DNA from: Candidatus Omnitrophota bacterium
GTDB lineage: Bacteria; Omnitrophota; Gorgyraeia; DTHP01
Direction: 5' to 3'
Length of the DNA: 64,000 nucleotides
NCBI GenBank assembly: GCA_023819145.1
Contig: JAMWCW010000008.1
Coordinates: 5,584-69,583 of the forward strand
Shown here: in pieces, positions 921 through 31,930 of the stretch
How the letters are laid out: each line of letters begins with the position of its first letter
How positions within the stretch are numbered: position 1 is the first letter of the stretch
Position numbers and translations under genes: made by a program
The notes under the pieces: generated by a model
What the model saw: only the letters and a program-made list of their open reading frames with translations
Told to the model about the DNA's origin: nothing
The model's database searches: none

Positions 921-1649
921 ATGGAAAGAAATTTTACCTTAATTTTGCCGGTGAGAGATGAAGAAGAAAATATAAAAATCTTAATTGAGAAATTAAAAAA
1001 AACCCTTAAAGATACAATTGTAATTTTTGTTGATGATAGTTCTACAGATGAAACAGAAAAAATAGTAAAATTATTTATGGCGAAAGACAATGATATCATC
1101 TTGATTGAAAATAAAGGAAGCCGATTAGCTTCGGCAATTAGAACAGGGATAGAAAATGCTTCTACCGAAATTGTGGGCTGGATGGATGCAGATTTATCTA
1201 TGCCCGTAGAGATTATTCCACAGATGGTTGATTTTTTGTCTGAGTATGATATAGTTTTAGGTTCGCGTTATATTGAAGGAGGAAAAGATTTAAGAGAAAG
1301 TAGAATGCGTATTCTTACATCAAGACTATTTAATTTATTGAGTAAAAAAATATTAAATACAAAAACTAACGATCTCACATCGGGCTTTGTTATTACAAAA
1401 AAAGAGTTCTTAGAGGAATTAAAAATAGAAGGTAAATATGGTGAATATTGTCTAAGCCTCATTTATCAGGCAGAGAGGAAAGGATTTAAAATAAAAGAAG
1501 CTCCTTATATATTTCGGGAAAGAAAGAAGGGGAAAAGCAAAATTGGTTCCAATTTATTCATTTTATTTAAGAACTCTCTCTTCTATTTTCTGATGGTAAT
1601 AAGGCTTAAATTTAGAGATTTATTCTTTTATAGAGATAATAAATTTTAG
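921..1649 (+). CDS. GT2 family glycosyltransferase, polyprenol-phosphate sugar synthase (Dpm1/ArnC-like)
   Basis: N-terminal LILPVRDEEENI, central DxD-like VDDSS, and a GT2-A fold pattern (IVGWMDADL, VLGSRY, SGF..T) typical of dolichol-phosphate mannosyltransferase-like enzymes. Confidence 0.75.
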   Translation: MERNFTLILPVRDEEENIKILIEKLKKTLKDTIVIFVDDSSTDETEKIVKLFMAKDNDIILIENKGSRLASAIRTGIENASTEIVGWMDADLSMPVEIIPQMVDFLSEYDIVLGSRYIEGGKDLRESRMRILTSRLFNLLSKKILNTKTNDLTSGFVITKKEFLEELKIEGKYGEYCLSLIYQAERKGFKIKEAPYIFRERKKGKSKIGSNLFILFKNSLFYFLMVIRLKFRDLFFYRDNKF

Positions 1650-3417
1650 GATAAGGGTTTTTAAAAATAGATTTTGGTAGTTCAATTTTTTTTAATAGTT
1701 GATAATTGTATTGATTATTTTGTATCTCAAGAAAGAGTTCAAAAAATAACTTTTCTGCTTCAGAATACGAAATTTTAATATTGTAGTTCTTCTCTATAAC
1801 TTCATGTAAAAAAGTGTATAATTTATGTCTAAACAGAGGATTTCTTAATTCTCTTAAAGAATAAAAAGCATCGCTGTATTTTTCAATTGGCTCAGTAATT
1901 AAAATATAATCAAAATTATATGGCTGAAAAATTATTTTTGGACTTCCGTGACAATCTTTCTCTAAATTAAATAGGAATAATAATACTCGGGGGGTAAGCA
2001 TTTTGTCTTTAATTTTATGGGATATTTTTTCAAGTGTTGTTTCAAAAACATAAGGAATTCTCCATCGTTGTATAATTTTAAATCGCAATATATCTTCGAA
2101 TAAATCATCTGTAGCTAATCCGATAATGAATATCATTTTTTCATTATTTAGTTTCATGTCTTTTATAACTAAGTCTATAATATTATCTATATCCTCGTAA
2201 TCAAAACTAACGGCGTAAAGCATTCCCTCTCTGTGTGTTCTTTTATCAAAATCAATACTTGTAAAGATATATTTATCCTTTTTATAATTGATAATAAAAA
2301 ATTGAACCAGACAAAATAAAAAAAGACATAGAAATATTTTATGTTTATATAAGTTTAAGATTTTTCCCTTATAAATTTTTATGTATTGAGGAAGATTATT
2401 TAAAACATAAGCAATAACTATTCCTGAGGCAGGTAGTGACGGAAGAGTGTGTCTAGGAAAATCTTCGTAAGTGAAAAAAAGAAAATAAAAAAGAGGCGTG
2501 CATAACCAACTTAGAATAAATATCTTGTGTTTAGATTTTGTAATAGAATATAAAAAAAGACAGAAAAATAAAAGAATAGTTAATAGAGGATAAAGCTGAT
2601 ATTTCCAGAGGTTTAGACAAGAGAATTTGTATATATTATTTAACCTATTGATCGTAAATGATGTGTTTGCCGCATTCAACAGATAGAGTTGGCCAGGCAT
2701 ATGTTGGAGATACCACGGTAAAACAATAAGTAAGGGTAAGACAAAAAACAAAATACTAATTATTTTTATCTTCCCAAATTTATAAATAGCGTGAGAAGAA
2801 TATATTAAGAATGGGATAAAAAAATAAATAAGAAACGTTTGTTTATGAAGTAATCCAATTATAATGGTTAGGCTCGAAAAAAAAGAGTATATTTTTTTCT
2901 GAAAATATTCGGATTCAAGCAAAAAATAAAAAAATAAAGCTACTAAAGCTGTAATAGAAAAATCTAACATATACACACGGGAAAATCCAAAGATTCCCGG
3001 GTAAAAACTCACCAATAGAGCAGTGCCCATTCCGGTATATTCATTATCTAAGATTCCTCCAATTTTATATAACGCATAGATTAAGATAAAAAGATATAAG
3101 AGATTTGATAGAAGAGCTGTTTTAAGAGAAGGTCCTAAAAGGATAAAAAATGGTAAAGTAGCCATATGCCTCAAAAAAGGGTAAATCGAGTTAGTATCAA
3201 AAATTAAACATATTCTTTCTTTAAAAGACAATGACGGATTTCTTATAGCTTCGTATACTCTAAGCGAAGAAGAGTAGTATCCTAATTGATCCTCTACGAA
3301 AGGGGCATTGTCTTGAGAGATAATTATAAAATTGTTTATTGTATGGAAAATAAAAATGAGAATTAAGAAAAATTTAGTTCTATTTTTTTGCCAGAAAGAT
3401 AATATGGAAGTCATCAT
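1612..3417 (-). CDS. polytopic membrane glycosyltransferase, GT-C fold (PMT_2/ArnT-like) with C-terminal soluble domain
   Basis: About 12 predicted TM helices in the N-terminal 400 aa. First-loop acidic motif FVEDQLGYY resembles the catalytic DE/DD loop of ArnT/PMT/STT3. Confidence 0.5.
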   Translation of the reverse strand: MMTSILSFWQKNRTKFFLILIFIFHTINNFIIISQDNAPFVEDQLGYYSSSLRVYEAIRNPSLSFKERICLIFDTNSIYPFLRHMATLPFFILLGPSLKTALLSNLLYLFILIYALYKIGGILDNEYTGMGTALLVSFYPGIFGFSRVYMLDFSITALVALFFYFLLESEYFQKKIYSFFSSLTIIIGLLHKQTFLIYFFIPFLIYSSHAIYKFGKIKIISILFFVLPLLIVLPWYLQHMPGQLYLLNAANTSFTINRLNNIYKFSCLNLWKYQLYPLLTILLFFCLFLYSITKSKHKIFILSWLCTPLFYFLFFTYEDFPRHTLPSLPASGIVIAYVLNNLPQYIKIYKGKILNLYKHKIFLCLFLFCLVQFFIINYKKDKYIFTSIDFDKRTHREGMLYAVSFDYEDIDNIIDLVIKDMKLNNEKMIFIIGLATDDLFEDILRFKIIQRWRIPYVFETTLEKISHKIKDKMLTPRVLLFLFNLEKDCHGSPKIIFQPYNFDYILITEPIEKYSDAFYSLRELRNPLFRHKLYTFLHEVIEKNYNIKISYSEAEKLFFELFLEIQNNQYNYQLLKKIELPKSIFKNPYPKIYYLYKRINL

Positions 3418-4180
3418 TTTTTATTCTTATAAATTCAAATGAGGGATAGATATTTATTAGTTTTAAATCTGCTAAGTTGAGATACCTTTCTAATTCATAA
3501 GGAGAGTAAATTCTTAAAATATGTGTCTCTTTGTAGTTTTTAAGAAGTCCATCATTTTTGAATAATTTTAAATTATAATCAATTCTGCAAACTTGTTTTA
3601 ATTCATCAATTTTTATTTTTCCCTCGCGGATCAGTTTACTATTATTAAATTTTATTTCCTTAAAACTTTTTGGAGAAAAAGAATCGGTTGATTTCAAAGC
3701 ATTCCAGACTTCAAAAACAAAAAGACCATTTCTTTTTAGACTTGCATAGACATTTTTAAATAATTGCCTTAGCGATTTTATCTCGGTAATATAATTTATC
3801 ACTGCAAACAAAGAAATTACCACATCAATTTTTTTTCTCGGTCTGTAGTTTGTAATATCTTTTACTAAAAATTTTCCTCTTAAACCTGCTTTGTTTAATT
3901 TTTCTTTGGCAATTTTAACCATATCTTTGGAAATATCTATCCCTGTAACCCGATATCCTCTTTTGATCAATTCTAGGCTATGGTTTCCTGTCCCGCAACC
4001 TAAATCTAAGATATCTTTAGGTTTTTTATTGAGAAATTTTTTAAACAATTTTTCTAAAAAACCAGTCTCTTTTCTATATTCTTTATCTTTATAGATTAAA
4101 TCGTAAAAATAGGCATAGTCAGAATTAAAGCATTTACTTTGCATATTACCTATAATATAGTAAAATATCTTTAACTTCAA
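3380..4180 (-). CDS. class I SAM-dependent methyltransferase
   Basis: Motif I LDLGCGTGNHSLEL and post-I acidic VTGIDIS. The start probably lies downstream of the 38-nt overlap with the preceding gene. Confidence 0.75.
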   Translation of the reverse strand: MKLKIFYYIIGNMQSKCFNSDYAYFYDLIYKDKEYRKETGFLEKLFKKFLNKKPKDILDLGCGTGNHSLELIKRGYRVTGIDISKDMVKIAKEKLNKAGLRGKFLVKDITNYRPRKKIDVVISLFAVINYITEIKSLRQLFKNVYASLKRNGLFVFEVWNALKSTDSFSPKSFKEIKFNNSKLIREGKIKIDELKQVCRIDYNLKLFKNDGLLKNYKETHILRIYSPYELERYLNLADLKLINIYPSFEFIRIKNDDFHIIFLAKK

Positions 4181-9139: not shown

Positions 9140-9140
9140 G

Positions 9141-11309: not shown

Positions 11310-12782
11310 ATGAGAATTAAGGTTATTCTTCTAATAGTTTTATTATTAGCTTTGGGGATAAGGATTTACTGTTTAGGAAAGTGGGAACTCTGGTATGATG
11401 AGATTTTAGCGATTAAGACTGCGCAGAATTTTAGATTAGCGAATAATTCTTATCTGTATTATACTCTTCTTTATTATTGGATAAAATTTTTTAAATTCTC
11501 TGAATCCACTGTTCGTATTCCGTCTTTAATTTTCAGTATGTTATCTATAGCCTCACTTTATTTGTTGGGAAAAAATTTATTTAATGAGAAAATCGCTTTG
11601 TTCTCTACCGGGTTATTGGCTTTTAATCCATTTCATATCTGGTATTCTCAGGAGGCAAGACCTTATAGTGCATTGGTTTTGTGTGGTATTTTGTCATCAT
11701 ATTTTTTATTTAGAGGGTTAAAGGAAAAAAAGATTTTATTTTTATTTCCCTTCACTTTTTTATCTGTTGTTGGAATATATCTCCACTATTTTTATATTAC
11801 CTTTTTGCTAGTATGTTTATTTATTGTTTTATTATTTTTGTTTGTTAAAAAACAAAAATATTATGTTTATTGGCTTACAATAAGTATATTAATTATTTTT
11901 TTGTTCCTTTCTCCTTGGCTACCGCGGTTTCTATTAAATCTGTGCTGTATTATAGATGGATTTTGGATACCTGTGCCTAGTTTTAAATCTTTGTTTATAA
12001 CTTTAGAAAATTTTAATTTAGGTTATAATGCTCCTAATTGGGCGTATAAATATTCATTATTTTTGACTCTTATTTTATTTCTCTCCGCCATAAATTTTCT
12101 TAGAGAAAAAAAAGAATTACAGAGCAACTTTTGGTTATGTTTGATGTTATTTATTTTACCCATTTTATTTGCCTTTTTCTTTTCTAAATTTTTATTTTCC
12201 ATCTATCTTGATCGTGCCTTAATGATTTCTTCTCCTTATTATTATTTAATCTTAGGGATAGGTTTAGAGTCCATAGGGAGGAAGAAGTTAAAATATTTTG
12301 TAAAATTATCTATATTTTTTTTGTTAGTTCAGAGTCTATCTTTTTATTACCAAGGTATCACACATTCGTCTCTTACACACCATACAGGTGCTTACGTTAA
12401 AAAGCCTATAAGGCCTGTAATTAATTATTTAGAAAGAAGAGTGAATAAAAATGATATAATATGTATTATAAATACCCATGTATTTCTACAATTTAATTTT
12501 TATAAACAAAATAAAGGGATATTATGTTTTTATGTTTTTTCTCCAGAAATATGGGATACTAATTGGAACAGACCTCATTCTGAAGGAAATAACTGGATTC
12601 CTGTAAATAGATTAATAGGATTTGATAGTGATAGAATATGGATGCTTTTTTCTGATTGTCCGAGAAGCGGCAAGTTAGATGAAAATTCCCAAAAAGTTAA
12701 GTCATGGATGGATAAAAACTACCTGACTATATTCGAACAGTGGCTAGATGGGATTTTGCTAAAATTATATGAAAAAAAGTAG
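11310..12782 (+). CDS. GT-C fold membrane glycosyltransferase (PMT_2/ArnT family)
   Basis: Polytopic membrane protein. First-loop motif LWYDEILAIK and FNPFHIWYSQEARPYS resemble ArnT/PMT_2. Confidence 0.65.
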   Translation: MRIKVILLIVLLLALGIRIYCLGKWELWYDEILAIKTAQNFRLANNSYLYYTLLYYWIKFFKFSESTVRIPSLIFSMLSIASLYLLGKNLFNEKIALFSTGLLAFNPFHIWYSQEARPYSALVLCGILSSYFLFRGLKEKKILFLFPFTFLSVVGIYLHYFYITFLLVCLFIVLLFLFVKKQKYYVYWLTISILIIFLFLSPWLPRFLLNLCCIIDGFWIPVPSFKSLFITLENFNLGYNAPNWAYKYSLFLTLILFLSAINFLREKKELQSNFWLCLMLFILPILFAFFFSKFLFSIYLDRALMISSPYYYLILGIGLESIGRKKLKYFVKLSIFFLLVQSLSFYYQGITHSSLTHHTGAYVKKPIRPVINYLERRVNKNDIICIINTHVFLQFNFYKQNKGILCFYVFSPEIWDTNWNRPHSEGNNWIPVNRLIGFDSDRIWMLFSDCPRSGKLDENSQKVKSWMDKNYLTIFEQWLDGILLKLYEKK

Positions 12783-21958: not shown

Positions 21959-24745
21959 ATGGATAAGAAAAGTAGGGGAAGAAAGCGTGGGGGGATAAAA
22001 TTTTTAAAGGGGGCGATTGAGATGAAAAAGAGAATTTATAACAAAAGAGGAGAAATTTTAAATCGCCTGTTTTTAGGATTAGGAGTGGTAATTTTGGGGT
22101 TAGCTTTAGCCATTGGGATAAAGGCTCTATTCTTTAAAGGAGTTTCTCCACTACAAGAGATGGCAAAAATTGAAGAGCCGGAAAAGGAGGAAACTCGGGA
22201 GATTGCCAAGGAAGAGCTTGCTTTAGAGGAGAATTCTTTTGAAATTCCTAAGCCGGCAATTACTAAATTAGAAAAACCTGTCAAAATGATAACTGAAAAG
22301 GTAGATGTTGTAGCATATTTAAAGGAAAGAGGTTTAGAGATTAAAGAAGTAAAGCCTAAAGAAACCTTAAACAGACTTCTTGCCCAACATCCGGAAATTA
22401 CCCAGAAGGCAAGAGAATATCTAGATAAAACTGATTTACTTCTTACTAAACCTGGTTCTTATGTTCCTGGCGAAATAATGATAAGGCAAGTTTTGCCCGA
22501 GGGGAAAATAGAATATACAAAACTTAAAGTAGAGGAAGGAAGGGAGCGGGAAGCAATCAAAGAGGCTAATAATATTGAAGGAGTAGAAGCCTATTTAAAT
22601 AGAATAATTCCTATCACTTTATTAAAACGTTATAATCTTCCTTCTCTGCCCAAACCACCTGTGGTTAAACCAGTGGTTAGTGATTATTGGCCTAATGACC
22701 CGGATTATTTGGAAGGAAAACAATGGGCGCTAGAGGTATTGGAGATAGCCGATGCGTGGGAAGTGGTAAAGGAGTATTATGAAAAAAGTTGCGAACAACT
22801 TCATACTGCTACAAGTTCCGATAGTAGAGGAGTTAAGACATTAGTAATCAGAACCAATTCAACACCACCTCCTCCTGAGCCAATTCCTATTTGCGAAGCT
22901 AACTATCCGGAAATAAAAATAGCCATTATTGATACGGGTTGTGACCTTAACCATCCGGATTTAGCGGAAAACATTGATAAAGATTTAGATTACGATTTTG
23001 TAAATGACGACCAAGAAGCAGATGATGATAATGGCCATGGCACACATTTAACAGGAATCATTGGTGCGGTAATAAATAATGGAATTGGCATTGCGGGAAT
23101 TGTCCCTACCCCAAAACTCATTATTATCAAAGCACTGGATGCTGAAGGAGAGCAGGTAGAGGCTGATGTGTTAGCTGAGGCTATAGCTTATGCGATTGAA
23201 AAAGAAGCGAGAATTATCAACATGTCGTGGGGAACTTGGGAGGATTTGATGGAAGAGCCAGTTTTAGAAGATGCTTTTGAACTTGCCTTTTCCAGTGATA
23301 TTTTATTAGTAGCCGCAGCGGGAAATCATGCCGGTAAAGGAAGAAATGGAGAAGATTGTGTTTTATATCCGGCAAGATATAGAAAGGTTTTGGGTGTAGG
23401 AGGGACCGATTTTGTGGATGAACGCTGGGAAACTGCAGAACGAGATTATGGAGGAACGGCTACTGATAATCCTTGGTATGGAAAACCATTCGAGAGTGCT
23501 TATGGAGAAGGGGTAGATATTTTTGCACCGGCAGGGGATAAATTAGAGGGAGACATTTATAGTACACTACCTGACGATACTTACGGTTATTTAGCAGGGA
23601 CATCTATGTCCAGTGCTTTTGTTACAGGGATTGCGGGTTTGATTTTAACCTTAAATCCTGAACTTGACAAAGATACGCTACGAGAGTTAATCCTTGCTAC
23701 TGCTGAAGAAATAGAAATTGAGGGAACACTAGCAAAAAGAATCAATGCTTACAATGCGGTAGAAGAAGCATTTTCTTTCTCTATAAAGGAAGAAGATAAC
23801 GAAGATGAAGAAGAAGATAATGAAGAAGCTGAAGAAGAAGATAATGAAGAAGCTGAAGGAACTGTTCCTGAAGATGAAATTTGGATTAAGGGTAAAGTAA
23901 CGGAAGATGGAGAAGCTAAAGAAGGAATTACTGTTAAACTTATGTTAAAAGACAAAAATGATGAAAACAGGCAAACCCAGGAAGCCAAGACCGATAAAGA
24001 TGGGAAATACTTGATAAAATTCACTAAACTGGATAAAACTAAAAAATATAATTTAGACCGCCTTGAGCCTAAAAAACAAACTAATGTTCTAAGAAATTTA
24101 GAGCCAGGAAAGGAGTATACGCATGATATTACGTTTGATATTATAGGATATGGAGGAGGAGGTGAAGAATGTGATAAGGCAAGCTGCAGCAAGTCCATTA
24201 CTGGTCAGGGAATGAGTTGCAGATGTACAATAAGAGGTTGTGAATGTAAAACTTCAAATGAGTGGGAGGAATATTGTAGAGGAACATGTTCAGACTGGGT
24301 TGCGGTAACATGTGGAGATGGTAAAACAAAATGGGTAAGATGGTGTGCTCCTGGTTGTGAAGGAAGCTACTCAGGAGGAGATCCCTACGAATATAGTAGT
24401 GAAGGAGAACCAGGAAGAGATTCTTATACTGCAGAATGTAAAAATGGAGAGAGAGATGAAGTGGGCAACGTATGCATGTTCGGTAAGTGGTGTGGTCCTG
24501 GTTCAAATATATTGGAAGGATGTACCCCCAAAAAACCGACACCTACGCCGACACCGACGCCGACACCTACGCCGACACCTACGCCGACACCTACGCCTAC
24601 GCCGACACCTACGCCGACGCCGACACCTACACCGACACCGACGCCGACACCGACACCGACACCAGAAGGAACACCGACACCGACGCCAGAAGGAACAACC
24701 GACGCCGACACCGACGCCGACACCGACACAACGCTATGCGAGTGA
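21959..24745 (+). CDS. membrane-anchored/secreted subtilisin-like serine protease (S8) with acidic repeat, Cys-rich domain and (PT)n linker
   Basis: N-terminal TM/signal anchor. S8 triad motifs ([33 protein letters not shown]). (EEDNEEA)x2. An approximately 110-aa domain with 18 Cys. About 40 PT dipeptides at the C-terminus. Confidence 0.8.
24541..24720 (+). repeat. tandem 12-nt repeat (CCGACACCTACG-like) encoding the (PT)n linker
   Basis: Visible periodicity; the alternative-frame ORFs in the track here are artefacts of the repeat. Confidence 0.85.
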
Positions 24746-24892: not shown

Positions 24893-24908
24893 TTATTAAA
24901 AAGGGCCT

Positions 24909-25014: not shown

Positions 25015-25189
25015 ACAAATGTTAGATAAAGAGGTTTTTTAGTTAAATGGTGAGCTTTAAAATTTTAATTTTTTAATTAGGCGTGTTTATGACGCTTTTC
25101 TGAAATATATTCAGTAATTTTGGCAAAGAGGAAGAGAATTAACATTATTATTCCCACACCTAATAACGCAATTTCTGTGATAGCCATTA

Positions 25190-25503: not shown

Positions 25504-26313
25504 TTAAAACACCCAATTTACGGCAAAGCTTCCCGCAGTTTCATCTAAGAATCTCCCTTCAAAGTTTAAGTTTATGCTTTCTCCTGCCAAGTAGTCTGTT
25601 CCCAAGAAGATGCCAAAGTTTTTATCTGCTTCGTATTTGTTATTATCTGCCCAGCCTGAGTCTTTGGGTTCTTTTATGGTGGTGCGCATATCAGAGTATC
25701 TTATGCCAAAATAAGGAGTAAAATTATTAATTTTTTTAGCCAGATAAGGAGCAATATGCCATTCTTGGACCACAAAAGATTTATACTTTGTAGAATTGCC
25801 CTCTTCATTTAATTTTGCTTTACTTTGCGATCTTAAATACTGCAAATCACAGCCCACCATCCAGTCGTTTAACCAGTCGCTCTTAAACCAATATCCTCGA
25901 TAATTATTTTTGTTAAAACGATAGACTCCTTTTAGCCCTAATCCATAAGTAACTCCCAAGTCAGTATTAAATTTATCGGTAGCAGTTTTTACACCGCCGT
26001 TGTAGATTTCGTCTTTTAAAGTATAATCCGCTACGCCTAATTTTAGATAAGCCTCCAGATTATCTAAAAGCCCATAAGAAGCTTTTACTGTAGCTTGGTA
26101 AGTTTTATTTATTTTTGCATTTTTTATCTCATCTCCTACGAGAAGGCCCGAGGAACTTTTAAAATTCAATTTCCTCTCAAAAATGAATGAAGAATCCACC
26201 CCCACCCCTAACCTACCTTGTCCCTGCGTTTCTGCACCTCCAATGCTTGCGCCATGAGCAAGAGTAGGAAGAAAAATTAAAACCACCATACTTAAGAAAA
26301 ATATTTTTTTCAT
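25504..26313 (-). CDS. outer-membrane beta-barrel protein (porin/OmpA-barrel-like)
   Basis: Signal peptide MKKIFFLSMVVLIFLPTLAHGA, alternating amphipathic strands, aromatic-rich, C-terminal ...AVNWVF ending in Phe. Confidence 0.55.
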   Translation of the reverse strand: MKKIFFLSMVVLIFLPTLAHGASIGGAETQGQGRLGVGVDSSFIFERKLNFKSSSGLLVGDEIKNAKINKTYQATVKASYGLLDNLEAYLKLGVADYTLKDEIYNGGVKTATDKFNTDLGVTYGLGLKGVYRFNKNNYRGYWFKSDWLNDWMVGCDLQYLRSQSKAKLNEEGNSTKYKSFVVQEWHIAPYLAKKINNFTPYFGIRYSDMRTTIKEPKDSGWADNNKYEADKNFGIFLGTDYLAGESINLNFEGRFLDETAGSFAVNWVF

Positions 26314-26553: not shown

Positions 26554-27357
26554 GTGTTTAATTTCTTGTTAGCTTTCTTATTTTCTGTTATAATTTTTCC
26601 CATGAGTTTTGTGGTCGTTATCCCTATTTACAATGAAAAAGAACACATAAAGCCTCTGATTAAAGAGATTTTAGCAGTGGAAAATGTTTCTAAAATTATT
26701 GTCATTGACGATAATTCTTCCGATGGGACGGGAGGAGTTTTAGATGAACTCAAAGAGGAAGTTTGGCAATTAAAAGTTATACATCGTCCTCAAAAATTGG
26801 GTTTAGGAACCGCTTATATTGAAGGATTTAGACTTGCTTTAAAAGAAGATTGTAATTTTATTCTTCAGATGGATGGAGATTTTTCTCATGACCCAAAATA
26901 CATTCCTCAAATGCTTGAAGCTATAAAGACTTGCGATTTGGTGATTGGTTCACGCTATATTTCGCAAGGAGGAATTAAAAATTGGAGCCTTTGGCGGAGA
27001 TTATTAAGTAAAGTAGCAAGTATTTATGTCCGCATCATCACAAAAATGCCTCTTAATGATCCCACTAGTGGTTTTAAATGTTTTAGGAGAAAAGTTCTGG
27101 AAAAAATTACTTTGGATAAAATACACTCGCAGGGTTATGCTTTTCAAATCGAAATGAATTATTTAGTCTGGGGAAATAATTTTCGCATTAAAGAAATTCC
27201 CATTGTTTTTTACGAACGAAAAAGAGGAAAATCAAAACTTAACCTGAGAATAATTCTTGAAGCCATGTGGCGTGTCTGGGAACTACGTTTTGGAAACGAA
27301 ATGATTCGAAGAATAACGAATCGTACAATGATATTTGGATTATTCGTTGTCATTTGA
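26554..27357 (+). CDS. GT2 polyprenol-phosphate mannosyl/glycosyltransferase (Dpm1/Ppm1-like)
   Basis: VVVIPIYNEKEHI, VIDDNSSDGT, LQMDGDFSHDP, VIGSRY, DPTSGFKCFRR. The start is GTG at 26554 or ATG at 26602. Confidence 0.8.
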   Translation: MFNFLLAFLFSVIIFPMSFVVVIPIYNEKEHIKPLIKEILAVENVSKIIVIDDNSSDGTGGVLDELKEEVWQLKVIHRPQKLGLGTAYIEGFRLALKEDCNFILQMDGDFSHDPKYIPQMLEAIKTCDLVIGSRYISQGGIKNWSLWRRLLSKVASIYVRIITKMPLNDPTSGFKCFRRKVLEKITLDKIHSQGYAFQIEMNYLVWGNNFRIKEIPIVFYERKRGKSKLNLRIILEAMWRVWELRFGNEMIRRITNRTMIFGLFVVI

Positions 27358-27369: not shown

Positions 27370-29226
27370 TTAATAATTTACCTCAAATATACGAAAAAAT
27401 CCCGATTCCATTTCTGTTTTATAGATTTCTTTAAAGCGGTTCGATTTAAGAAAAGTCCGCAGATTGGGTTTAAGTTCTTTTTCATAAGGACTGATGACAA
27501 TATGAGTGATTTTATATTTCTTGATGAAGGTTAAATCTGCGATACGATAAATCTCTTGTATATCTTTTTCTATCTCATCATATTTATATCCATGAGACCA
27601 GAGCCATCCCCGATAGCCCAAGATAATACTCCTTCCACTTAACATAGAAACAGGATGATTATGAGTATCTGAGGTTAAAATTAAAGCAGAAGGTGTTATG
27701 TTTTTTCTTACCCAAGAGGCAATCGCTTGTTCTTTCTTATTTGCCATTACAAAACTTATACGATTAAGGTAAATGTAGTCAATTACTCCAGAAAATACTG
27801 AAAAAAATAACAGGATAATTACTAAAAATAATCGGTCAGGTTTTTTCCAACGCGAGGTTTCTAAAATCTTTATCGGAGTAAAACTGGCAATAACACAACT
27901 TATGAAAAACCAATGCAGGAAATATTTAGCGTTGTCCCAGTCCAAGGGATGAACCATGATAAAGTTGGCCAAAAGAAAGATTATAAGAAAAGGTAGATAA
28001 AAAATAATCTCTTTTTTTCTTACCAGAAATAAACCTTTGATGAGTAGAAAGAAAATAAATCCGAAGTTATAAATCCAAAAAAGAAAAATGAGTATAGGAT
28101 TAGGTGAATTTAGCATCCAGCCCGGTTTGAGCCAAAAAGATTTATGTAAGGTGTTGCTAATGAGATAAAATACTTGAGGTAGACTTACGATAATCGCCGG
28201 AACGATAAAATAAATCCATTCTTTTCGGAGACGAAAGATGAAAAGAATTAAAGAAACAAAAATTAAAACTATAAAAGAAGAAGTATGGATCAATGGGAGA
28301 CAACCTAAAAGAAATCCTCCGAGGATAAGATTCTGTACGGAAATTCGCGGTTCGTTATTTTTAAAAAATTCTTTTAGAAGAATAAGATAGATAAATACGG
28401 AAATAGCCATTCCCCAGATAATTGTTCTCTGTGAAAGGAAAAGGACTGAAAGTGCATTTCCCCAGACAAGCCCTTTGGAATCAATTTTAGTATAGAAAGA
28501 TTGGGCAAAGAATATTTCTTTTGGCTCTTTTCCTAAAGCAAAGAGAAAACCAAAATTTCCATTAAGGAAGAGAAGAAGCAGACAAAATAACGCCGCAATT
28601 TCTGAATGGCTAAATTCTTTAGTAAAAAGAAAAATTATAGAAATAAGCCCAATTCCTAAGATTAGGTTAATAAAAACAATAGAATTTACATAACTTAAAC
28701 CCCCCTTATACATAATTGCTGAAAGAAAATCAGTGAGGAAGGGATAGATAAGTTTATGTTTTACGAGGAGAGGGTGGTTTAAGGTTAAAGGGGTTTTTTC
28801 CGAAAAATGCATCATATAAGTAAGATGGAGGGCATAATCTCCCCAGGCGGTAGACATTGCTCTTAAATTTCCTTGCGTATCAAACTTAAAGGTATTGAAA
28901 TTAACTAAAGAAAAGATTAAGCTGAAGAGGATAATGGTTAAAAGATAAGTTTTAGAGGGAAGAATTATTGAAGGAAATTTTTTCTTTTGAGCATATTTTA
29001 AAAGAGCCAGAGAGAAGAATACAGAAATTATAGTTACTACCAAAATTAATTTTATATTCAGTGAGCCAATAATCAGGGACAATATAAAGGTTATCCAAGT
29101 GGTAAGCGTAAAACCCAGAATTATCCCTAAAGTAAATTTTTCCTCAATCCGTGGGAATCCCCGAAAATATAAAGCAATACTTGTTCCTAAGAGAAAACTT
29201 GCTAAACAAAAAATTATCCCTATCAT
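27370..29226 (-). CDS. polytopic membrane protein, possible GT-C glycosyltransferase partner
   Basis: Approximately 14 TM helices. It abuts and is transcribed with the PMT-like gene at 29227..30726. Confidence 0.35.
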   Translation of the reverse strand: MIGIIFCLASFLLGTSIALYFRGFPRIEEKFTLGIILGFTLTTWITFILSLIIGSLNIKLILVVTIISVFFSLALLKYAQKKKFPSIILPSKTYLLTIILFSLIFSLVNFNTFKFDTQGNLRAMSTAWGDYALHLTYMMHFSEKTPLTLNHPLLVKHKLIYPFLTDFLSAIMYKGGLSYVNSIVFINLILGIGLISIIFLFTKEFSHSEIAALFCLLLLFLNGNFGFLFALGKEPKEIFFAQSFYTKIDSKGLVWGNALSVLFLSQRTIIWGMAISVFIYLILLKEFFKNNEPRISVQNLILGGFLLGCLPLIHTSSFIVLIFVSLILFIFRLRKEWIYFIVPAIIVSLPQVFYLISNTLHKSFWLKPGWMLNSPNPILIFLFWIYNFGFIFFLLIKGLFLVRKKEIIFYLPFLIIFLLANFIMVHPLDWDNAKYFLHWFFISCVIASFTPIKILETSRWKKPDRLFLVIILLFFSVFSGVIDYIYLNRISFVMANKKEQAIASWVRKNITPSALILTSDTHNHPVSMLSGRSIILGYRGWLWSHGYKYDEIEKDIQEIYRIADLTFIKKYKITHIVISPYEKELKPNLRTFLKSNRFKEIYKTEMESGFFRIFEVNY

Positions 29227-30726
29227 TTATATCCAACTCTTTATCCACATATAAAAATCAAATGTCTTCTGGCTTATGGGCAGACCATAGCTTAAAGGTG
29301 AAAAGATTAAGAAACAGCCAATTAATGTGAAAAATAGGGCTATTAACCAGTAGTGAGGAATTTTATAAATATTTCTTTTGGTTATAAAATAAAGATAAAT
29401 ACTGAATAAACTCCCCAGAATAATAAAAAAGCTTCCTAATAAAAAAGGAGTCTCTTGGGGAATATACCATAAATAAACGGCGCGGGAGATTAAAATAAGT
29501 AAAGGAAGCGCGGTAATTAAGGTAAATATACTTGGAAGTGGAGAGGGTATTTCTTCTATTGCTAGAAATTTATCTAAAATAACTGCGGTAGCAATTAACG
29601 CAAAGATAAGCGCCGTAAGATAATGATATAAAAATAAACAACGGGAAATAGACATAAAAGGGAGGAAGGAAATGATATAACCGCTTAAAATAATCTCTTT
29701 ACCTCTAAATTCAGCTAAATTCCTGAAAGGAAAGAATTTCTTAAGGAAGGTCAGAATAATAAGAGTAATTATCCCCAGTGTGGATAACCACCAGACAAAA
29801 GGGTTTCCTAAAAAGGTAATATTTTGCACGTGGTTACTTCCCAGAGAAGAATGCAAATAACTCACCGACCTTGCCATAAAAGGCCAGGTAAACCATTTGC
29901 TGGAATAGTGATGAGTTAGAGGGCGTGAATGGCTATAAAACATGCTTTTGTTTAATCCCATAACTTCTTTAAATCCTCCCGCATGATTTAATGTTTTGAA
30001 ATGGATGGAAATTGTAAAATAGTAAATGATTAAAGGAATAATTACAAAAGTAAGAAAATACATAATTATTTTTTTTGGTTTTTTCATTATTTTTAGACGC
30101 TCGGTGTAAAGAATTTCTATCAAAACTATCCCCAGACCAATTAAACCAATCCATTTAGTAGATATCGTAAAACCTCCACTCATCCCAGCGATAAAAAGCC
30201 AGCGTTTTCTTTTTCCATTTTCGCTTTTTAGAAAAGTATATATGGTAAAGATAATAAAAAAGATTAAAAATGGGTCAGGAGTAATAAACCGTGAATGGGT
30301 CAAAAAGGCGTTGTCAAAAAGAATAAATAAAGAAGCCAATAATCCTGCACGCGGAGATTGGGTAATTTTTTGTGTAAAAAGAAAAATAAGCGGTATTAAT
30401 AAAGCACCAAACAATGCAGGAACAAGTCTTAAAACAAAAAGAGGGGTCTCTTTGGGATATGCTGAACCAATATGCTCAAAACTTGTTTTTGGATCTAAAC
30501 TAAATAATTTTGCTAAACCTGCCATAAAGAGTTTAGCCAAAGGAGGATGGTCATCAAAAAAATATTCCCGCTTTAGATAACTTGAGATATATTTCCCATA
30601 GTGCACTTCATCAAAGACGACTTTATTGACAGAACTTAAATTAATTAAGCGGGTGAGTAAAGAGAGTAGGGTAAGAAAGAGGAGAATCTTAGAACGGTGC
30701 TGCTTAAATAAATTATTGTTTTGCAT
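29227..30726 (-). CDS. protein O-mannosyltransferase-like GT-C glycosyltransferase (GT39/PMT family)
   Basis: VVFDEVHYGKYIS first-loop motif closely matches the Pmt1 VVFDEVHFG signature; multipass membrane topology. Confidence 0.7.
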   Translation of the reverse strand: MQNNNLFKQHRSKILLFLTLLSLLTRLINLSSVNKVVFDEVHYGKYISSYLKREYFFDDHPPLAKLFMAGLAKLFSLDPKTSFEHIGSAYPKETPLFVLRLVPALFGALLIPLIFLFTQKITQSPRAGLLASLFILFDNAFLTHSRFITPDPFLIFFIIFTIYTFLKSENGKRKRWLFIAGMSGGFTISTKWIGLIGLGIVLIEILYTERLKIMKKPKKIIMYFLTFVIIPLIIYYFTISIHFKTLNHAGGFKEVMGLNKSMFYSHSRPLTHHYSSKWFTWPFMARSVSYLHSSLGSNHVQNITFLGNPFVWWLSTLGIITLIILTFLKKFFPFRNLAEFRGKEIILSGYIISFLPFMSISRCLFLYHYLTALIFALIATAVILDKFLAIEEIPSPLPSIFTLITALPLLILISRAVYLWYIPQETPFLLGSFFIILGSLFSIYLYFITKRNIYKIPHYWLIALFFTLIGCFLIFSPLSYGLPISQKTFDFYMWIKSWI

Positions 30727-30844
30727 TCGTTTTTAATATAAAATAAAGAACATAAAATGTCAATTTTATTTTAAATGATAAACAATGTTCTAATTTTTTA
30801 GAACACTTGTTTTAAACAGTTTTAAATTAGTTAAGATTTATTAA

Positions 30845-31540
30845 ATGATAAGAAACATTTCGGTTTTTTTCCCTGCTTATAATGAAGAAAAAAATATCGA
30901 AAAGGTAGTTTTATCTACTTTAGATTTTTTAAAAGAAATTACTTCCGATTATGAGATAATTATTGTTAACGATGGGAGCAAAGATAGAACAGGAGAAATT
31001 GCAGAAGATTTATCTAAAAAAAATCCACAGGTTAAAGTGGTCCATCACTCTAAAAATTTAGGTTATGGCTCGGCACTTACTTCTGGATTTAGAAATTCTA
31101 CCAAAGATTTGGTTTTCTTCATGGATAGTGATAACCAATTTGATATCAAAGAAATAAGAAATTTATTGCCTCTTTTAGAGAGCTTTGATGTAGTGGTGGG
31201 TTATCGGCTAAGAAGAAAGGACTCTTTTCATCGTAAATTGAATGCCTGGCTTTTTAATCTATTGGTAAATATCTTGTTTTGTTTAGGAATAGAAGATGTG
31301 GATTGCGGGTTTAAGTTATTTAAAAAAGAAGCAGTAGAAAATATAAAATTGGAATCAAAAGGAGCTTTAATCTCAACAGAATTATTGGTGAAAATTAAAA
31401 AAAGGGGTTTTAGAATAAAGCAAGTAGGAGTGCACCATTATCCACGGATGCACGGGAAACAAACCGGTACAAACTTTAAGGTGATTTTAAGGTTTTTTAA
31501 GGAATTGATTAAGATGGGATGGAAACTAAGATTTAGTTAA
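30845..31540 (+). CDS. GT2 polyprenol-phosphate glycosyltransferase (ArnC/GtrB-like)
   Basis: ISVFFPAYNEEKNI, IIIVNDGSKDRT, FFMDSDNQFD, VVGYR. Confidence 0.8.
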   Translation: MIRNISVFFPAYNEEKNIEKVVLSTLDFLKEITSDYEIIIVNDGSKDRTGEIAEDLSKKNPQVKVVHHSKNLGYGSALTSGFRNSTKDLVFFMDSDNQFDIKEIRNLLPLLESFDVVVGYRLRRKDSFHRKLNAWLFNLLVNILFCLGIEDVDCGFKLFKKEAVENIKLESKGALISTELLVKIKKRGFRIKQVGVHHYPRMHGKQTGTNFKVILRFFKELIKMGWKLRFS

Positions 31541-31578
31541 ATAGTTAAGTTGAATAGTTAAATGGTTAAATGAAGGGA
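31535..31578 (+). repeat. TAGTTAAATAGTTAAGTTGAATAGTTAAATGGTTAAATG stop-rich intergenic motif
   Basis: Same family as the repeats after etfB and etfA. Confidence 0.45.
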
Positions 31579-31585
31579 GAGGGGT

Positions 31586-31930
31586 ATGAAGCCATTCTTT
31601 CTTATTTTAATATCGGTGATTTTAGGAGTAATTGGGCAAGTATTCTTGAAAAAAGGAATGATTGGATTTAAGGGAGAATTTTCTACGCTATTAATTCATA
31701 TTATGCAGAATCCTTTTATTATTCTTGGCTTTTTCTTTTATCTTTTAAGCAGTCTTATCTGGTTAGTGATTCTTTCTAGGGTCGATTTAAGTTACGCATA
31801 TCCTATGTTAAGCTTGGGTTACATTGTGATTGTTTTTCTCTCCTGGTTAATTTTTAAGGAAAATATTACCTTTTGGCGCTGGGCGGGGGTAGTTTTAATT
31901 TCTTTTGGCATAGGTTTATTGCAGAAATAA
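31586..31930 (+). CDS. small 4-TM EamA/SMR-like protein (ArnE/ArnF-like polyprenyl-phosphate-sugar flippase subunit)
   Basis: 114 aa with 4 TM helices and SYAYPMLSLGYIVIVFLSWLIFKE. It sits next to an ArnC-like GT2 and is divergent to a PMT-like GT-C gene. Confidence 0.5.
   Translation: MKPFFLILISVILGVIGQVFLKKGMIGFKGEFSTLLIHIMQNPFIILGFFFYLLSSLIWLVILSRVDLSYAYPMLSLGYIVIVFLSWLIFKENITFWRWAGVVLISFGIGLLQK

What the first reader, a model, noticed from the sequence alone, without database searches (positions are those of the whole stretch)
921..31930. Multiple polyprenyl-phosphate-sugar synthase / GT-C transferase pairs: a PMT-like protein O-glycosylation system?
There are three Dpm1/ArnC-like GT2 genes (921, 26554, 30845). 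There are at least three GT-C multipass transferases with the first-loop acidic motif (FVEDQLGYY, LWYDEILAIK, VVFDEVHYGKY). The last motif is nearly the eukaryotic/actinobacterial Pmt signature. An ArnE-like 4-TM flippase (31586) is also present. The architecture is synthase on the cytoplasmic face, then flippase, then GT-C transfer on the periplasmic face. In actinobacteria, Ppm1/Pmt mannosylate Thr/Pro-rich linkers of secreted proteins. The adjacent subtilase has an approximately 40 x PT linker and nearby pseudopilins are obvious acceptor candidates. Such a dense PMT-like toolkit next to a secretion apparatus is not standard in diderm bacteria.
Basis: partly seen in the sequence, partly recalled or inferred. 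Interest (0 to 1): 0.65.

Follow-up and report, generated by a model that had tools for sequence, protein, structure and literature searches.

The report
Protein O-mannosyltransferase gene module in Omnitrophota
An uncultured Gram-negative-type bacterium (Omnitrophota) carries a real homologue of the yeast/mycobacterial enzyme that attaches mannose to secreted proteins. The gene sits in a conserved cassette with a sugar-lipid synthase, a small flippase-like protein and a previously unclassified membrane glycosyltransferase, next to a secretion system and a protease with a long Pro-Thr tail.

Summary
The window is a Ca. Omnitrophica MAG contig. It contains three small Dpm1/ArnC-like GT2 genes, an ArnE/F-like 4-TM gene, and four GT-C genes rather than three.

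Only 29227-30726(-) is a true GT39 PMT:
- Pfam PMT scores 188 bits and PMT_4TMC 109 bits.
- The best solved relatives are fungal PMTs.
- D39/E40 align with ScPmt1 D77/E78.
- There is no MIR domain.

Its translationally abutting neighbour 27370-29226(-) has no Pfam, NCBIfam or PDB sequence match. It models confidently as a GT-C fold resembling DPY19, STT3 and ArnT. Its family has at least 2,784 clusters at 50% identity.

PMT, this GT-C and a DPMS-like GT2 (26554) stay together in all six Omnitrophota loci. PMT and the GT-C are also adjacent in a 'Nitrospirae' MAG, a CPR genome and an unclassified bacterium. The second GT2 and any extra GT-Cs between it and PMT vary between genomes.

The cluster-linked subtilases carry P/T/S-rich tracts. 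The window copy has (PT)21, not ~40, as a C-terminal tail. Pseudopilins are not S/T-rich.

Most likely this is a PMT-based protein O-glycosylation module. The sugar and the acceptors are inferred, not shown.

The parts
29227..30726 (-). PMT (GT39) protein O-mannosyltransferase homologue, 499 aa, without a MIR domain. D39/E40 form the loop-1 DE motif, and R100 is conserved.
   Evidence: PF02366 187.9 bits, PF16192 108.7 bits. PDB best matches are fungal Pmt4, Pmt1 and Pmt2, E 2e-41 to 8e-34. D39/E40 align with ScPmt1 D77/E78 and R100 with R138. Invariant columns are listed in A2. The protein is 100% identical to an NCBI Omnitrophica MAG protein.
27370..29226 (-). Unclassified GT-C-fold glycosyltransferase ('GTC618'), 618 aa. 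Its ATG abuts the PMT stop codon. D130, Y161, R267 and N387 are invariant in both family alignments; K434 in A1 only.
   Evidence: No Pfam, NCBIfam or PDB sequence hit. AF2 model has pLDDT 87 and pTM 0.91. Foldseek against PDB gives DPY19, STT3/AglB/PglB, ArnT and AftA, probability 1.0, TM 0.4-0.5. Family size is 2,784 clusters at E<=1e-30. It is adjacent to PMT in 6 Omnitrophota loci plus L011, L035 and L054.
26554..27357 (+). GT2b, a DPM1/DPMS-type polyprenyl-phosphate mannose synthase candidate. The true start is probably M17 at 26602. It is convergent with GTC618.
   Evidence: PF00535 102 bits. PDB: P. furiosus DPMS 131.8 bits, against 46 bits for the next match, ArnC. Orthologues of 62-67% identity occupy the same position in all Omnitrophota loci.
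30727..30844 (.). 118-bp divergent intergenic region between PMT and GT2c. In relatives this is a variable slot holding 0-2 extra GT-C genes.
   Evidence: L006 and L007 have a PMT_2 protein of 466 aa here. L009 has a PMT_2 of 405 aa plus a PIG-V-like protein of 371 aa. L001 has a 111-aa fragment. A promoter-like TTGACA-17-TATATT lies at 30763-30735(-) (the scan as a whole is not above chance).
30845..31540 (+). GT2c, a second polyprenyl-phosphate sugar synthase. Its sugar is not assignable.
   Evidence: PF00535 121 bits. PDB matches are about equal: ArnC 76.8, DPMS 76.1, GtrB 65 bits. In L001 and L009 a different GT2 type (about 30% identity) occupies this position.
31586..31930 (+). ArnE/F-like SMR-fold 4-TM protein, a candidate polyprenyl-P-sugar flippase.
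   Evidence: NCBIfam ArnF 46.8 bits and ArnE 41.3 bits, both below cut-off. Pfam EamA is weak. Orthologues of 60-67% identity are present in L006 and L009; L001 has a 114-aa gene at the same position.
21959..24745 (+). Subtilase (S8), 928 aa. It has an N-terminal hydrophobic anchor or signal, an acidic linker and a Cys-rich region. It is the candidate acceptor.
   Evidence: PF00082 170 bits. It is the only genuine ORF in the 64-kb window with a P/T/S-rich tract. The L001 orthologue has a (PT)13 linker. The L006 in-cluster subtilase has SP/TP repeats.
24536..24661 (+). (PT)21 tract of the subtilase, followed by [27 protein letters not shown] and the stop codon.
25504..26313 (-). Beta-barrel outer-membrane protein with a signal peptide and C-terminal ...NWVF. 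It marks a diderm envelope.
   Evidence: Weak OMP_b-brl hit. Sequence. An orthologue sits at the same position in L001.
31976..33943 (+). 655-aa exported thioredoxin/DsbA/Grx-like protein fused to a DsbD/CcdA-like membrane domain. Conserved between the SMR-like gene and gspF.
33947..40289 (+). T2SS/T4P-like genes: GspF, GspG, H/I/J-like pseudopilins, GspK, a PilM/N-like protein and a PilO/GspM-like protein.
   Evidence: Same order in L001 and L002.
19848..21554 (+). GspE/PilB-type ATPase with an MshEN N-terminal domain.
   Evidence: PF00437 458 bits, PF05157 75 bits.
921..1649 (+). GT2a, a DPMS-like synthase in a separate low-GC glycan locus. Its 3' end overlaps the 601-aa GT-C by 38 bp (convergent).
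   Evidence: PF00535 97.8 bits. PDB: DPMS 73 bits against ArnC 35 bits.
1612..3417 (-). 601-aa GT-C of the PMT/PMT_2 superfamily. Not part of the conserved PMT module.
   Evidence: No direct family hit. Homologues P0145 and P0146 carry PF02366/PF13231. hhalign to the PMT profile gives 91.5% probability, E 9e-7. The AF2 model is poor, pLDDT 47.
11310..12782 (+). 490-aa PMT_2 (PF13231) GT-C. Not orthologous to the in-cluster PMT_2 of relatives.
   Evidence: PF13231 46.5 bits. No similarity to the L006 466-aa protein.

Best explanation
The region 26.5-31.9 kb is a lipid-carrier-dependent protein O-glycosylation module built around a true GT39 protein O-mannosyltransferase.

Proposed mechanism (family assignments and gene linkage are shown; the chemistry and the acceptors are inferred):
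1. On the cytoplasmic face, the DPM1/DPMS-type GT2b makes polyprenyl-phosphate-mannose from GDP-mannose. GT2c makes a second polyprenyl-P-sugar.
2. The lipid-linked sugars reach the periplasmic leaflet. The ArnE/F-like 4-TM protein is the candidate flippase.
3. PMT transfers mannose to Ser/Thr in disordered, Pro-rich tracts of proteins emerging from Sec.
4. The co-translated unclassified GT-C (GTC618) acts on the same substrates. In relatives, the extra GT-Cs of the variable slot do too. They either extend the O-mannose, as GT-C PimE/GT87 enzymes do in Actinobacteria, or modify further sites.
5. The neighbouring subtilase with its (PT)21 tail is the prime candidate acceptor. It would then be oxidatively folded, with the adjacent Trx/DsbD-like protein as a candidate helper, and exported by the flanking T2SS.
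For: PMT membership:
- PF02366 and PF16192 score far above their cut-offs.
- Fungal PMT structures are the best solved relatives, with DE, R and HPP motifs aligned.
- 31 columns are invariant across Omnitrophota and CPR homologues.

Donor synthase:
- GT2b matches DPMS at 131.8 bits, against 46 bits for ArnC.

GTC618:
- It has a GT-C fold.
- It abuts the PMT stop codon.

Linkage:
- The PMT, GTC618 and GT2b triad is present in all six Omnitrophota loci, at 55-73% PMT identity.
- PMT and GTC618 are adjacent in three other lineages in different gene orders (L011, L035, L054). In L011 the pair sits among housekeeping genes.

Acceptor clue:
- The subtilase is the only P/T/S-rich genuine ORF in the 64 kb.
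- The L001 orthologue has a (PT)13 tract. The L006 in-cluster subtilase has SP/TP repeats.
- In two CPR-type loci, the gene directly next to PMT encodes a secreted protein with a long S/P/T tract.

Literature:
- Every experimentally characterised GT39 discussed in the papers read transfers mannose to protein Ser/Thr.
- Actinobacterial PMTs prefer Pro-rich and linker sites.
- GT-C enzymes (PimE, GT87) extend the mannose (PMC12331936, PMC11727336, PMC12757957).
Against: - No biochemical data exist for any PMT outside Actinobacteria and eukaryotes.
- The protein scores only 48.8 bits against the actinobacterial Pmt equivalog model, whose cut-off is 800. It is therefore not an orthologue of the characterised bacterial enzymes.
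- The GT2 plus small flippase plus GT-C architecture is also typical of systems that decorate glycans or lipid A.
- No GDP-mannose pathway gene is in the window.
- Adjacency of P/T/S-rich genes to PMT is not statistically significant in the 80-locus sample: 2 of 6 such ORFs are directly adjacent, binomial P about 0.17 (my estimate).
- In closer relatives (L007, L009) the subtilase is not next to the module.
- In L011 the GT2 next to PMT is not the DPMS-like type.
Confidence: 0.55

Rival explanations
1. The enzymes are the same, but the module is a general periplasmic and envelope protein O-mannosylation system with no dedicated link to the T2SS or the subtilase. The adjacency would be inherited synteny within one Omnitrophota lineage.
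For: - In the 'Nitrospirae' MAG, the PMT, GTC618 and GT2 trio lies among Rho, UvrA and SelA/B genes.
- In the two CPR loci whose gene tables were read (L004, L005), PMT stands alone. Of 80 PMT loci, only L049 has a T2SS-gene match within 3 kb of PMT.
- L007 and L009 have TyrRS and S1 genes beyond GT2b, not a subtilase.
Against: - A subtilase with P/T/S tracts occurs in the cluster in three genomes at two different positions. This argues against pure inherited order.
- SMR, Trx655 and gspF stay contiguous in the window, L001 and L006.
Confidence: 0.25
2. The module is a three-component system of the Gtr, Arn or CsbB-GtcA-YfhO type. It would decorate a non-protein acceptor such as LPS/lipid A, peptidoglycan or an exopolysaccharide, with the PMT-family enzyme recruited to a glycan or lipid acceptor.
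For: - The gene set is a GT2 synthase, an ArnE/F-like 4-TM protein and several GT-Cs.
- There is a variable GT-C slot and a swappable second GT2, as in serotype-converting loci.
- The region has low GC, 30-33%, against 38-40% in the flanks.
- Such systems are widespread (PMC11127046, PMC8035078).
Against: - The PMT keeps all GT39 signature residues and the PMT_4TMC domain.
- No characterised GT39 acts on non-protein acceptors (PMC11727336, PMC12757957).
- No GT-C here matches an ArnT model.
- This rival remains open for GTC618 and the PMT_2 proteins.
Confidence: 0.15
3. The acceptors are the T2SS pseudopilins or pilins, as with the P. aeruginosa TfpW GT-C, which O-glycosylates pilin.
For: - The module lies directly upstream of gspF-G-H-I-J-K.
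- A GT-C pilin glycosyltransferase precedent exists (bioRxiv 10.1101/2020.04.19.049825).
Against: - GspG has 7% S+T, and no pseudopilin has a P/T/S-rich tract.
- PMT and GTC618 pairs elsewhere lack pilin neighbours.
Confidence: 0.05

Closest known systems
Actinobacterial Ppm1/Pmt protein O-mannosylation (M. tuberculosis Rv1002c, S. coelicolor SCO3154, C. glutamicum Cg_1014), with GT-C elongation by PimE/GT87
   Same: - A GT39 PMT without a MIR domain.
- A DPM1-type polyprenyl-P-mannose synthase.
- Further GT-C enzymes available for elongation.
- Pro/Thr-rich secreted hydrolases as candidate acceptors (PMC12757957, PMC12331936).
   Different: - The host is diderm and carries a T2SS.
- The genes are clustered, whereas in Actinobacteria they are dispersed (my knowledge).
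- The protein scores only 48.8 bits on the actinobacterial Pmt equivalog model, whose cut-off is 800. It is more similar to fungal PMTs (146 bits).
- It has an obligate-looking partner GT-C from an unclassified family.
- An ArnE/F-like protein is present.
Eukaryotic ER Dol-P-Man pathway (DPM1 with PMT1-7/POMT; DPY19 C-mannosyltransferase)
   Same: - The PMT core motifs (VVFDEVH[FY]GK, FFD.HPP, R138 equivalent, LFL.HYL) are almost identical, with about 35% identity over 389 core columns to fungal PMTs.
- GT2b is DPMS-like.
- The best structural matches of GTC618 include DPY19 and STT3.
   Different: - There is no MIR domain. The roughly 230-residue loop-5 insert is absent.
- There is no evidence of hetero-dimerisation.
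- The carrier is presumably a bacterial polyprenol.
- GTC618 has no sequence-level relation to DPY19 or STT3. Only 1 of 34 family members hits Pfam Dpy19, and weakly.
Three-component periplasmic glycosylation systems (GtrA/GtrB/GtrX; ArnC/ArnE-F/ArnT; CsbB/GtcA/YfhO)
   Same: - A cytoplasmic GT2 polyprenyl-P-sugar synthase, a small 4-TM flippase candidate and a GT-C transferase encoded together.
- Variable GT-C content between strains (PMC11127046, PMC8035078).
   Different: - The GT-C here is a GT39 PMT, a family known only for protein acceptors.
- There are two synthases and two or more GT-Cs in one module.
- The GT2s lack the C-terminal TM pair of GtrB (231-267 aa).
PMT homologues of CPR/Patescibacteria (database annotations only)
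   Same: - Same PMT subfamily, 33-40% identity, PF02366 plus PF16192, no MIR domain.
   Different: - In CPR, PMT usually has no glycosylation-gene neighbours. Neither locus whose gene table was read (L004, L005) has any, and only 1 of the CPR-labelled loci in the 80-locus scan has a GT2 within 3 kb.
- GTC618 is adjacent in only 2 non-Omnitrophota, non-'Nitrospirae' loci of 80.

Membership tests
GT39 protein O-mannosyltransferase (PMT), gene 29227-30726 | PMT N-terminal domain (PF02366) above the gathering score | tested here: met
   187.9 bits against a cut-off of 22.7, residues 17-247 covering the whole profile.
GT39 protein O-mannosyltransferase (PMT), gene 29227-30726 | C-terminal four-TM region (PF16192 PMT_4TMC) | tested here: met
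   108.7 bits against a cut-off of 32.4.
GT39 protein O-mannosyltransferase (PMT), gene 29227-30726 | Loop-1 DE motif and conserved Arg (ScPmt1 D77/E78, R138) | tested here: met
   An ungapped phmmer alignment with offset +38 places D39/E40 on D77/E78 and R100 on R138. D39, E40 and R100 are invariant in 20 homologues. The DE motif is required in actinobacterial and yeast enzymes (PMC11727336).
GT39 protein O-mannosyltransferase (PMT), gene 29227-30726 | MIR beta-trefoil domain in the large luminal loop (eukaryotic PMTs only) | tested here: not met
   Query residues 256-257 bridge chain residues 320 to 554 of CtPmt4. There is no PF02815 hit. Absence is the rule for bacterial PMTs (PMC12331936).
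GT39 protein O-mannosyltransferase (PMT), gene 29227-30726 | Orthology to characterised actinobacterial Pmt (NCBIfam NF058602 equivalog) | tested here: not met
   48.8 bits against a cut-off of 800, with only residues 16-174 matched.
GT39 protein O-mannosyltransferase (PMT), gene 29227-30726 | Transfers mannose from polyprenyl-P-Man to protein Ser/Thr | not testable with these tools
   Needs biochemistry or glycoproteomics.
DPM1/Ppm1/DPMS polyprenyl-phosphate mannose synthase, gene 26554-27357 | GT2 catalytic domain with DPMS as the distinctly best characterised relative | tested here: met
   PF00535 102 bits. P. furiosus DPMS (5mlz) 131.8 bits over residues 16-258, against ArnC at 46 bits.
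DPM1/Ppm1/DPMS polyprenyl-phosphate mannose synthase, gene 26554-27357 | GDP-mannose donor specificity | not testable with these tools
   No NCBIfam equivalog reached its cut-off. The best was AglJ at 74 bits against 325.
DPM1/Ppm1/DPMS, gene 30845-31540 (GT2c) | DPMS distinctly the best relative | tested here: inconclusive
   ArnC 76.8, DPMS 76.1 and GtrB 65 bits.
ArnE/ArnF undecaprenyl-P-sugar flippase (SMR fold), gene 31586-31930 | Match to the ArnE/ArnF equivalog models above their cut-offs | tested here: inconclusive
   ArnF 46.8 bits (cut-off 99) and ArnE 41.3 bits (cut-off 92). These are the best hits and cover the full length, but are sub-threshold. The gene is single, whereas Arn uses a heterodimer.
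ArnT / GT83 lipid A aminoarabinose transferase (any of the four GT-Cs) | Similarity to ArnT family models | tested here: not met
   No ArnT model was among the NCBIfam hits at E<=0.01 for any GT-C. ArnT appears only as a fold-level match of GTC618 (E 6e-5, TM 0.49).
Oligosaccharyltransferase STT3/AglB/PglB (GT66), gene 27370-29226 | GT-C fold plus a WWDYG motif in the C-terminal domain | tested here: not met
   Fold-level match only (E 1e-7 to 1e-5, TM 0.40-0.49). No WWD or W.D[YWF]G motif. No sequence hit to any PDB chain, even with a 34-sequence profile.
DPY19 C-mannosyltransferase (GT98), gene 27370-29226 | Pfam Dpy19 (PF10034) membership | tested here: not met
   No hit for the window protein. 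1 of 34 family members hits at E 9.5e-5. It is the top Foldseek match, but TM is only 0.40.
GT-C superfamily, gene 1612-3417 | Detectable homology to PMT/PMT_2 profiles | tested here: met
   The orthologues carry PF02366/PF13231. hhalign gives 91.5% probability, E 9e-7. The direct scan of the window copy is negative.

The most novel reading that the evidence does not exclude
GTC618 founds a large, unrecognised family of protein-modifying GT-C glycosyltransferases (at least 2,784 clusters at 50% identity, no Pfam model). It would work as an obligate partner of a eukaryote-like PMT. The Omnitrophota module would then be the first PMT-dependent O-mannosylation pathway in a diderm bacterium, feeding glycoproteins into a type II secretion system. 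A corollary is that the CPR/Omnitrophota PMT clade, rather than the actinobacterial one, is the closest prokaryotic relative of the eukaryotic ER PMTs.
Probability: 0.25. Interest if true: 0.75.

Novelty: new variant of a known kind. Interest (0 to 1): 0.55.

Why it matters
In bacteria, protein O-mannosylation by PMT has been studied experimentally only in Actinobacteria (PMC11727336, PMC12757957, PMC12331936).

This locus offers three things:
- **A compact test case.** It is a clusterable five-to-six-gene version from a diderm lineage: synthases, a flippase candidate, PMT and a partner GT-C, with an obvious reporter substrate next door. That makes it directly testable by heterologous expression.
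- **A first functional lead for a large orphan family.** The unclassified GT-C family is linked to PMT in at least four lineages.
- **Possible bearing on two wider questions.** If the module is confirmed, it would inform how glycoproteins pass through T2SS. It would also inform where the eukaryotic PMT/DPM1 toolkit came from.

Tried and rejected
- **Fold of the 601-aa GT-C.** The AF2 model from a 4-sequence alignment had pLDDT 47, so I did not fold-search it.
- **Single-sequence PDB searches.** The searches with the 618-, 601- and 490-aa proteins found nothing. A profile search with the GTC618 family returned only chance TIM hits.
- **hhalign of GTC618 against PMT.** Not significant, 16% probability. 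I therefore rejected the idea that GTC618 is a divergent PMT paralogue or heterodimer partner of the Pmt1/Pmt2 kind.
- **Is the window's PMT_2 gene (11310) a relocated copy of the in-cluster PMT_2 of L006/L007?** Rejected, because there is no similarity.
- **Context of a Micrarchaeota GTC618 homologue.** Uninformative.
- **Plasmid collection.** Only weak PMT_2-type hits, on Nitratiruptor plasmids.
- **Statistics on P/T/S-rich neighbours of PMT.** Across 80 loci the pattern is suggestive but not significant.
- **Literature.** I found no paper on PMT in Omnitrophota or CPR.
- **Rooting the PMT tree.** I could not obtain an actinobacterial PMT sequence, so the 'closer to eukaryotes' idea rests on score comparisons and an unrooted NJ tree only.

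Full report
**Source and layout.**
- The window is a contig of a Candidatus Omnitrophica MAG. The PMT-like protein is 100% identical to an NCBI MAG protein on a 73,067-bp contig, which PGAP names only 'phospholipid carrier-dependent glycosyltransferase'.
- G+C is 27-30% over 1-14 kb and 30-33% over 26-34 kb. Those are the two glycosyltransferase-rich stretches. Elsewhere it is 38-41%.
- Downstream of 43 kb the genes are housekeeping: HrcA-GrpE-DnaK-DnaJ and arginine biosynthesis.

**Check of the observation.**
- The three small GT2 proteins (242, 267 and 231 aa) hit PF00535 strongly. Their best solved relatives are polyprenyl-phosphate glycosyltransferases.
  - GT2b (26554) matches P. furiosus dolichol-phosphate mannose synthase at 131.8 bits, against 46 bits for ArnC.
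  - GT2a (921) matches DPMS at 73 bits, against 35 bits.
  - GT2c (30845) matches ArnC, DPMS and GtrB about equally, at 77, 76 and 65 bits.
- 31586-31930 is a 4-TM protein of 114 aa. Its best family hits are ArnF and ArnE, both below the curated cut-offs.
- Corrections:
  - The PT tract is 21 uninterrupted PT repeats plus [12 protein letters not shown]. It forms the C-terminal tail of the subtilase.
  - The pseudopilins are not Ser/Thr-rich.

**The PMT.** The product of 29227-30726(-) is a bona fide GT39 enzyme.
- PF02366 scores 187.9 bits and PF16192 (PMT_4TMC) 108.7 bits.
- The best solved relatives are fungal Pmt4, Pmt1 and Pmt2, with E 2e-41 to 8e-34.
- In the ungapped alignment with ScPmt1, D39/E40 fall on D77/E78 (the DE motif) and R100 falls on R138. 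FFDDHPPLAKL aligns with FMDVHPPLAKM, and LFLYHYL with LFLHHYL.
- These residues are invariant in 20 homologues.
- The MIR domain is absent, as in all bacterial PMTs (PMC12331936).
- It is not an orthologue of the characterised actinobacterial Pmt: 48.8 bits against a cut-off of 800.
- No GT-C in the window resembles ArnT at the sequence level.

**Distribution of the PMT.**
- Close homologues (55-72% identity) come from only five other Omnitrophota sequences.
- The next tier, hundreds of proteins at 33-40%, is Patescibacteria/CPR. Fungal PMTs follow at about 33-35%.
- I scanned 185,579 species genomes with the two signature peptides. It found 358 relatives. The best 80 are 2 Omnitrophota, 1 'Nitrospirae' MAG, three MAGs labelled only 'bacterium', and otherwise CPR.
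- In a crude NJ tree the Omnitrophota form one clade. The two eukaryotic sequences nest among the bacterial ones. No actinobacterial sequence was available to root the tree.

**The missed partner, GTC618.**
- 27370-29226(-) starts at the base after the PMT stop codon.
- It has no Pfam, NCBIfam or PDB sequence match.
- With a 21-sequence alignment it models at pLDDT 87 and pTM 0.91.
- Foldseek against the PDB returns only GT-C enzymes at probability 1.0: DPY19 C-mannosyltransferase, STT3/AglB/PglB, ArnT and AftA, with TM 0.4-0.5.
- A family profile finds 7,447 proteins at E<=1e-3, 4,599 at E<=1e-10 and 2,784 at E<=1e-30, among 1.84 billion 50%-identity representatives.
- Of 34 members, none has a solid Pfam assignment. 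DUF6798 hits weakly in 9, PMT_2 in 2, and DUF2298 and Dpy19 in 1 each.
- The profile matches no PDB sequence and is not significantly similar to the PMT profile.
- It is therefore a large GT-C family without a curated model.
- D130, H134, Y161, R267 and N387 are invariant in the wider alignment A4. D431 and K434 are conserved in at least 90% of members.

**Conserved anatomy of the module.**
- By gene tables and BLASTP, the arrangement PMT then GTC618, with GT2b convergent on it, is kept in all six Omnitrophota loci: the window, L001/L002, L006, L007, L008 and L009.
- A GT2 followed by the SMR-like gene lies on the other side of PMT in the window, L001, L006 and L009.
- That GT2 is of two unrelated types. 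The window/L006 type is one. The L001/L009 type is the other; its two members are 66% identical to each other and about 50% identical to the GT2 beside PMT in L011.
- The space between that GT2 and PMT is a variable slot:
  - empty (118 bp) in the window;
  - a 111-aa GT-C fragment in L001;
  - a 466-aa PMT_2 protein in L006 and L007;
  - a PMT_2 protein plus a PIG-V-like GT-C in L009.
- SMR, the Trx/DsbD-like 655-aa protein, gspF-G-H-I-J-K and the PilMN-like and PilO-like genes are contiguous in the window and L001. In L006 the run is kept as far as gspG-H, where the contig ends, with inserted genes.
- Outside Omnitrophota, PMT and GTC618 are immediate neighbours in three further loci:
  - L011, the 'Nitrospirae' MAG, where they are divergent, sit among Rho, UvrA and SelA/B, and have a GT2 alongside;
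  - L054, a Wildermuthbacteria genome, with the order GTC618 then PMT;
  - L035, an unclassified bacterium.
- Different gene orders in different PMT clades argue for functional coupling rather than inherited synteny.
- Most CPR PMTs stand alone.

- The 601-aa protein (1612-3417) is a distant PMT/PMT_2 relative. It converges on DPMS-like GT2a in the same geometry as GT2b and GTC618.
- The 490-aa protein (11310-12782) is PF13231 PMT_2.
- Both lie in the 1-14 kb low-GC locus, together with a methyltransferase, a GT4, another GT2 and radical-SAM genes.
- Neither has a counterpart in the conserved module of relatives. They are best treated as separate lipid-carrier-dependent glycosylation functions with unknown acceptors.

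**Acceptor clues.**
- Within the 64-kb window, the only genuine ORF with a P/T/S-rich tract is the subtilase three genes from PMT.
- Its L001 orthologue has (PT)13 directly after the S8 domain. At that position the window protein has an acidic linker.
- L006 has a subtilase inside the cluster, between SMR and Trx655, with Cys-rich SP/TP repeats.
- L008 has a TP-rich, PKD-containing ORF next to the module.
- In two CPR-type loci (L049, L061) the gene directly flanking PMT encodes a secreted protein with a long S/P/T tract.
- This fits the known preference of actinobacterial PMTs for Pro-rich and linker sites (PMC12331936, PMC11727336). The 80-locus sample is not statistically significant by itself.

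**Most likely mechanism.** See the best explanation. Briefly:
- GT2b supplies polyprenyl-P-mannose.
- The SMR-like protein may flip the lipid-linked sugars.
- PMT O-mannosylates disordered P/T/S-rich segments of exported proteins on the periplasmic face.
- GTC618 and the variable GT-Cs extend or diversify the glycan, using the products of GT2b and GT2c.
- The subtilase is the prime candidate substrate and the T2SS the likely exit route.
- Shown: family and fold assignments, motif conservation, and gene linkage across lineages.
- Inferred: sugar identity, flippase role, order of action, acceptors and the link to T2SS.

**Rivals.**
- The same chemistry with no dedicated T2SS or subtilase link.
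- A Gtr/Arn-type glycan or lipid decoration system. This cannot be excluded for GTC618 and the PMT_2 proteins.
- Pseudopilin glycosylation, which is the least supported.

**Comparison with the known, and novelty.**
- The closest systems are actinobacterial Ppm1/Pmt with GT-C elongation, the eukaryotic DPM1/PMT/DPY19 set, and bacterial three-component glycosylation systems (PMC12757957, PMC11127046, PMC8035078).
- I found no paper on PMT in Omnitrophota or CPR. Reviews state that bacterial PMTs have been examined only in Actinobacteria, even though CAZy lists about 3,800 bacterial GT39 entries (PMC11727336, PMC12757957).
- The enzyme family itself is known and is annotated generically in databases.
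- What is new here:
  - the clustered module in a diderm lineage;
  - its recurrent partnership with a large orphan GT-C family;
  - the variable GT-C/GT2 slot;
  - the placement next to a T2SS and a P/T-rich subtilase.
- I rate it a new variant of a known kind, with interest 0.55.

Noticed in passing
window 5294-11201: A RiPP-like maturation gene set lies inside the low-GC glycan locus. It comprises a B12-binding radical SAM (5294-6763), a 312-aa GT2 (6745-7683), an NTP_transf_5 protein (7670-8872), a radical SAM/SPASM protein (9295-10308, minus strand) and an HPr-kinase-C-like P-loop protein (10266-11201, minus strand). I did not look for a precursor peptide.
   Followed up: no
window 24896-25018 (-): A 40-aa ORF reading '...DYVAGENLNLNFEGRFL...' duplicates the C-terminal strands of the OMP at 25504-26313 ('DYLAGESINLNFEGRFL'). 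It is probably a remnant of a duplicated or rearranged OMP gene between the subtilase and the OMP.
   Followed up: no
window 19848-21554 and 40676-43150: The GspE/PilB ATPase carries an MshEN N-terminal domain, which is of the c-di-GMP-binding type. The secretion-gene run is followed by a GAF-PAS-GGDEF-HD-GYP protein. This suggests c-di-GMP control of the apparatus. No secretin or prepilin peptidase was seen in the window.
   Followed up: partly
window 31976-33943: A 655-aa protein has a signal peptide and periplasmic DsbA/glutaredoxin-like domains fused to a DsbD/CcdA/ArsG-like membrane domain. It is conserved between the SMR-like gene and gspF in the window, L001 and L006. The neighbouring subtilases have Cys-rich C-terminal regions.
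   Followed up: partly
window 1612-3417 (-): The NCBI gene call for this ORF is 517 aa, starting at M85. That removes TM1 and the loop with the conserved Asp (FVEDQ). The orthologue P0145 (582 aa) supports the longer form.
   Followed up: partly
window 23870-23940 (subtilase residues ~637-660) vs L001:15548-18886: The window subtilase has an acidic linker, [23 protein letters not shown]. At the same place its L001 orthologue has (PT)13. The PT tract of the window protein is instead at the C-terminus.
   Followed up: partly
L049:7189-8004 and L061:9113-10660: In two CPR-type genomes, the gene directly flanking PMT encodes a secreted protein with a long S/P/T tract. L049 has SPSESPGPSPTPSPTPTPT immediately after the signal peptide. 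L061 has a (SP)n run of about 40 residues within a Cys-rich protein.
   Followed up: partly
L001:8879-9610, L009:844-1584, L011:9233-10093 vs window 30845-31540: The GT2 next to the SMR-like gene comes in two unrelated types, about 30% identical to each other. The L001/L009 type carries the motif DTQCGFKLF and is about 50% identical to the GT2 beside PMT in the 'Nitrospirae' MAG. From memory, the motif resembles ALG5-type Dol-P-Glc synthases; I did not test that.
   Followed up: partly
L006:910-1263 and 2572-2868: Two '23S rRNA intervening sequence protein' genes (PF05635) are inserted among the T2SS F/G genes of this relative. An AbiEii/DUF6922 pair follows the module.
   Followed up: no
window 16373-19756: An acyl-CoA dehydrogenase is followed by EtfB and an EtfA with an N-terminal 2x[4Fe-4S] ferredoxin domain. 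This is a Bcd/Etf-type, probably electron-bifurcating, module typical of anaerobes.
   Followed up: no
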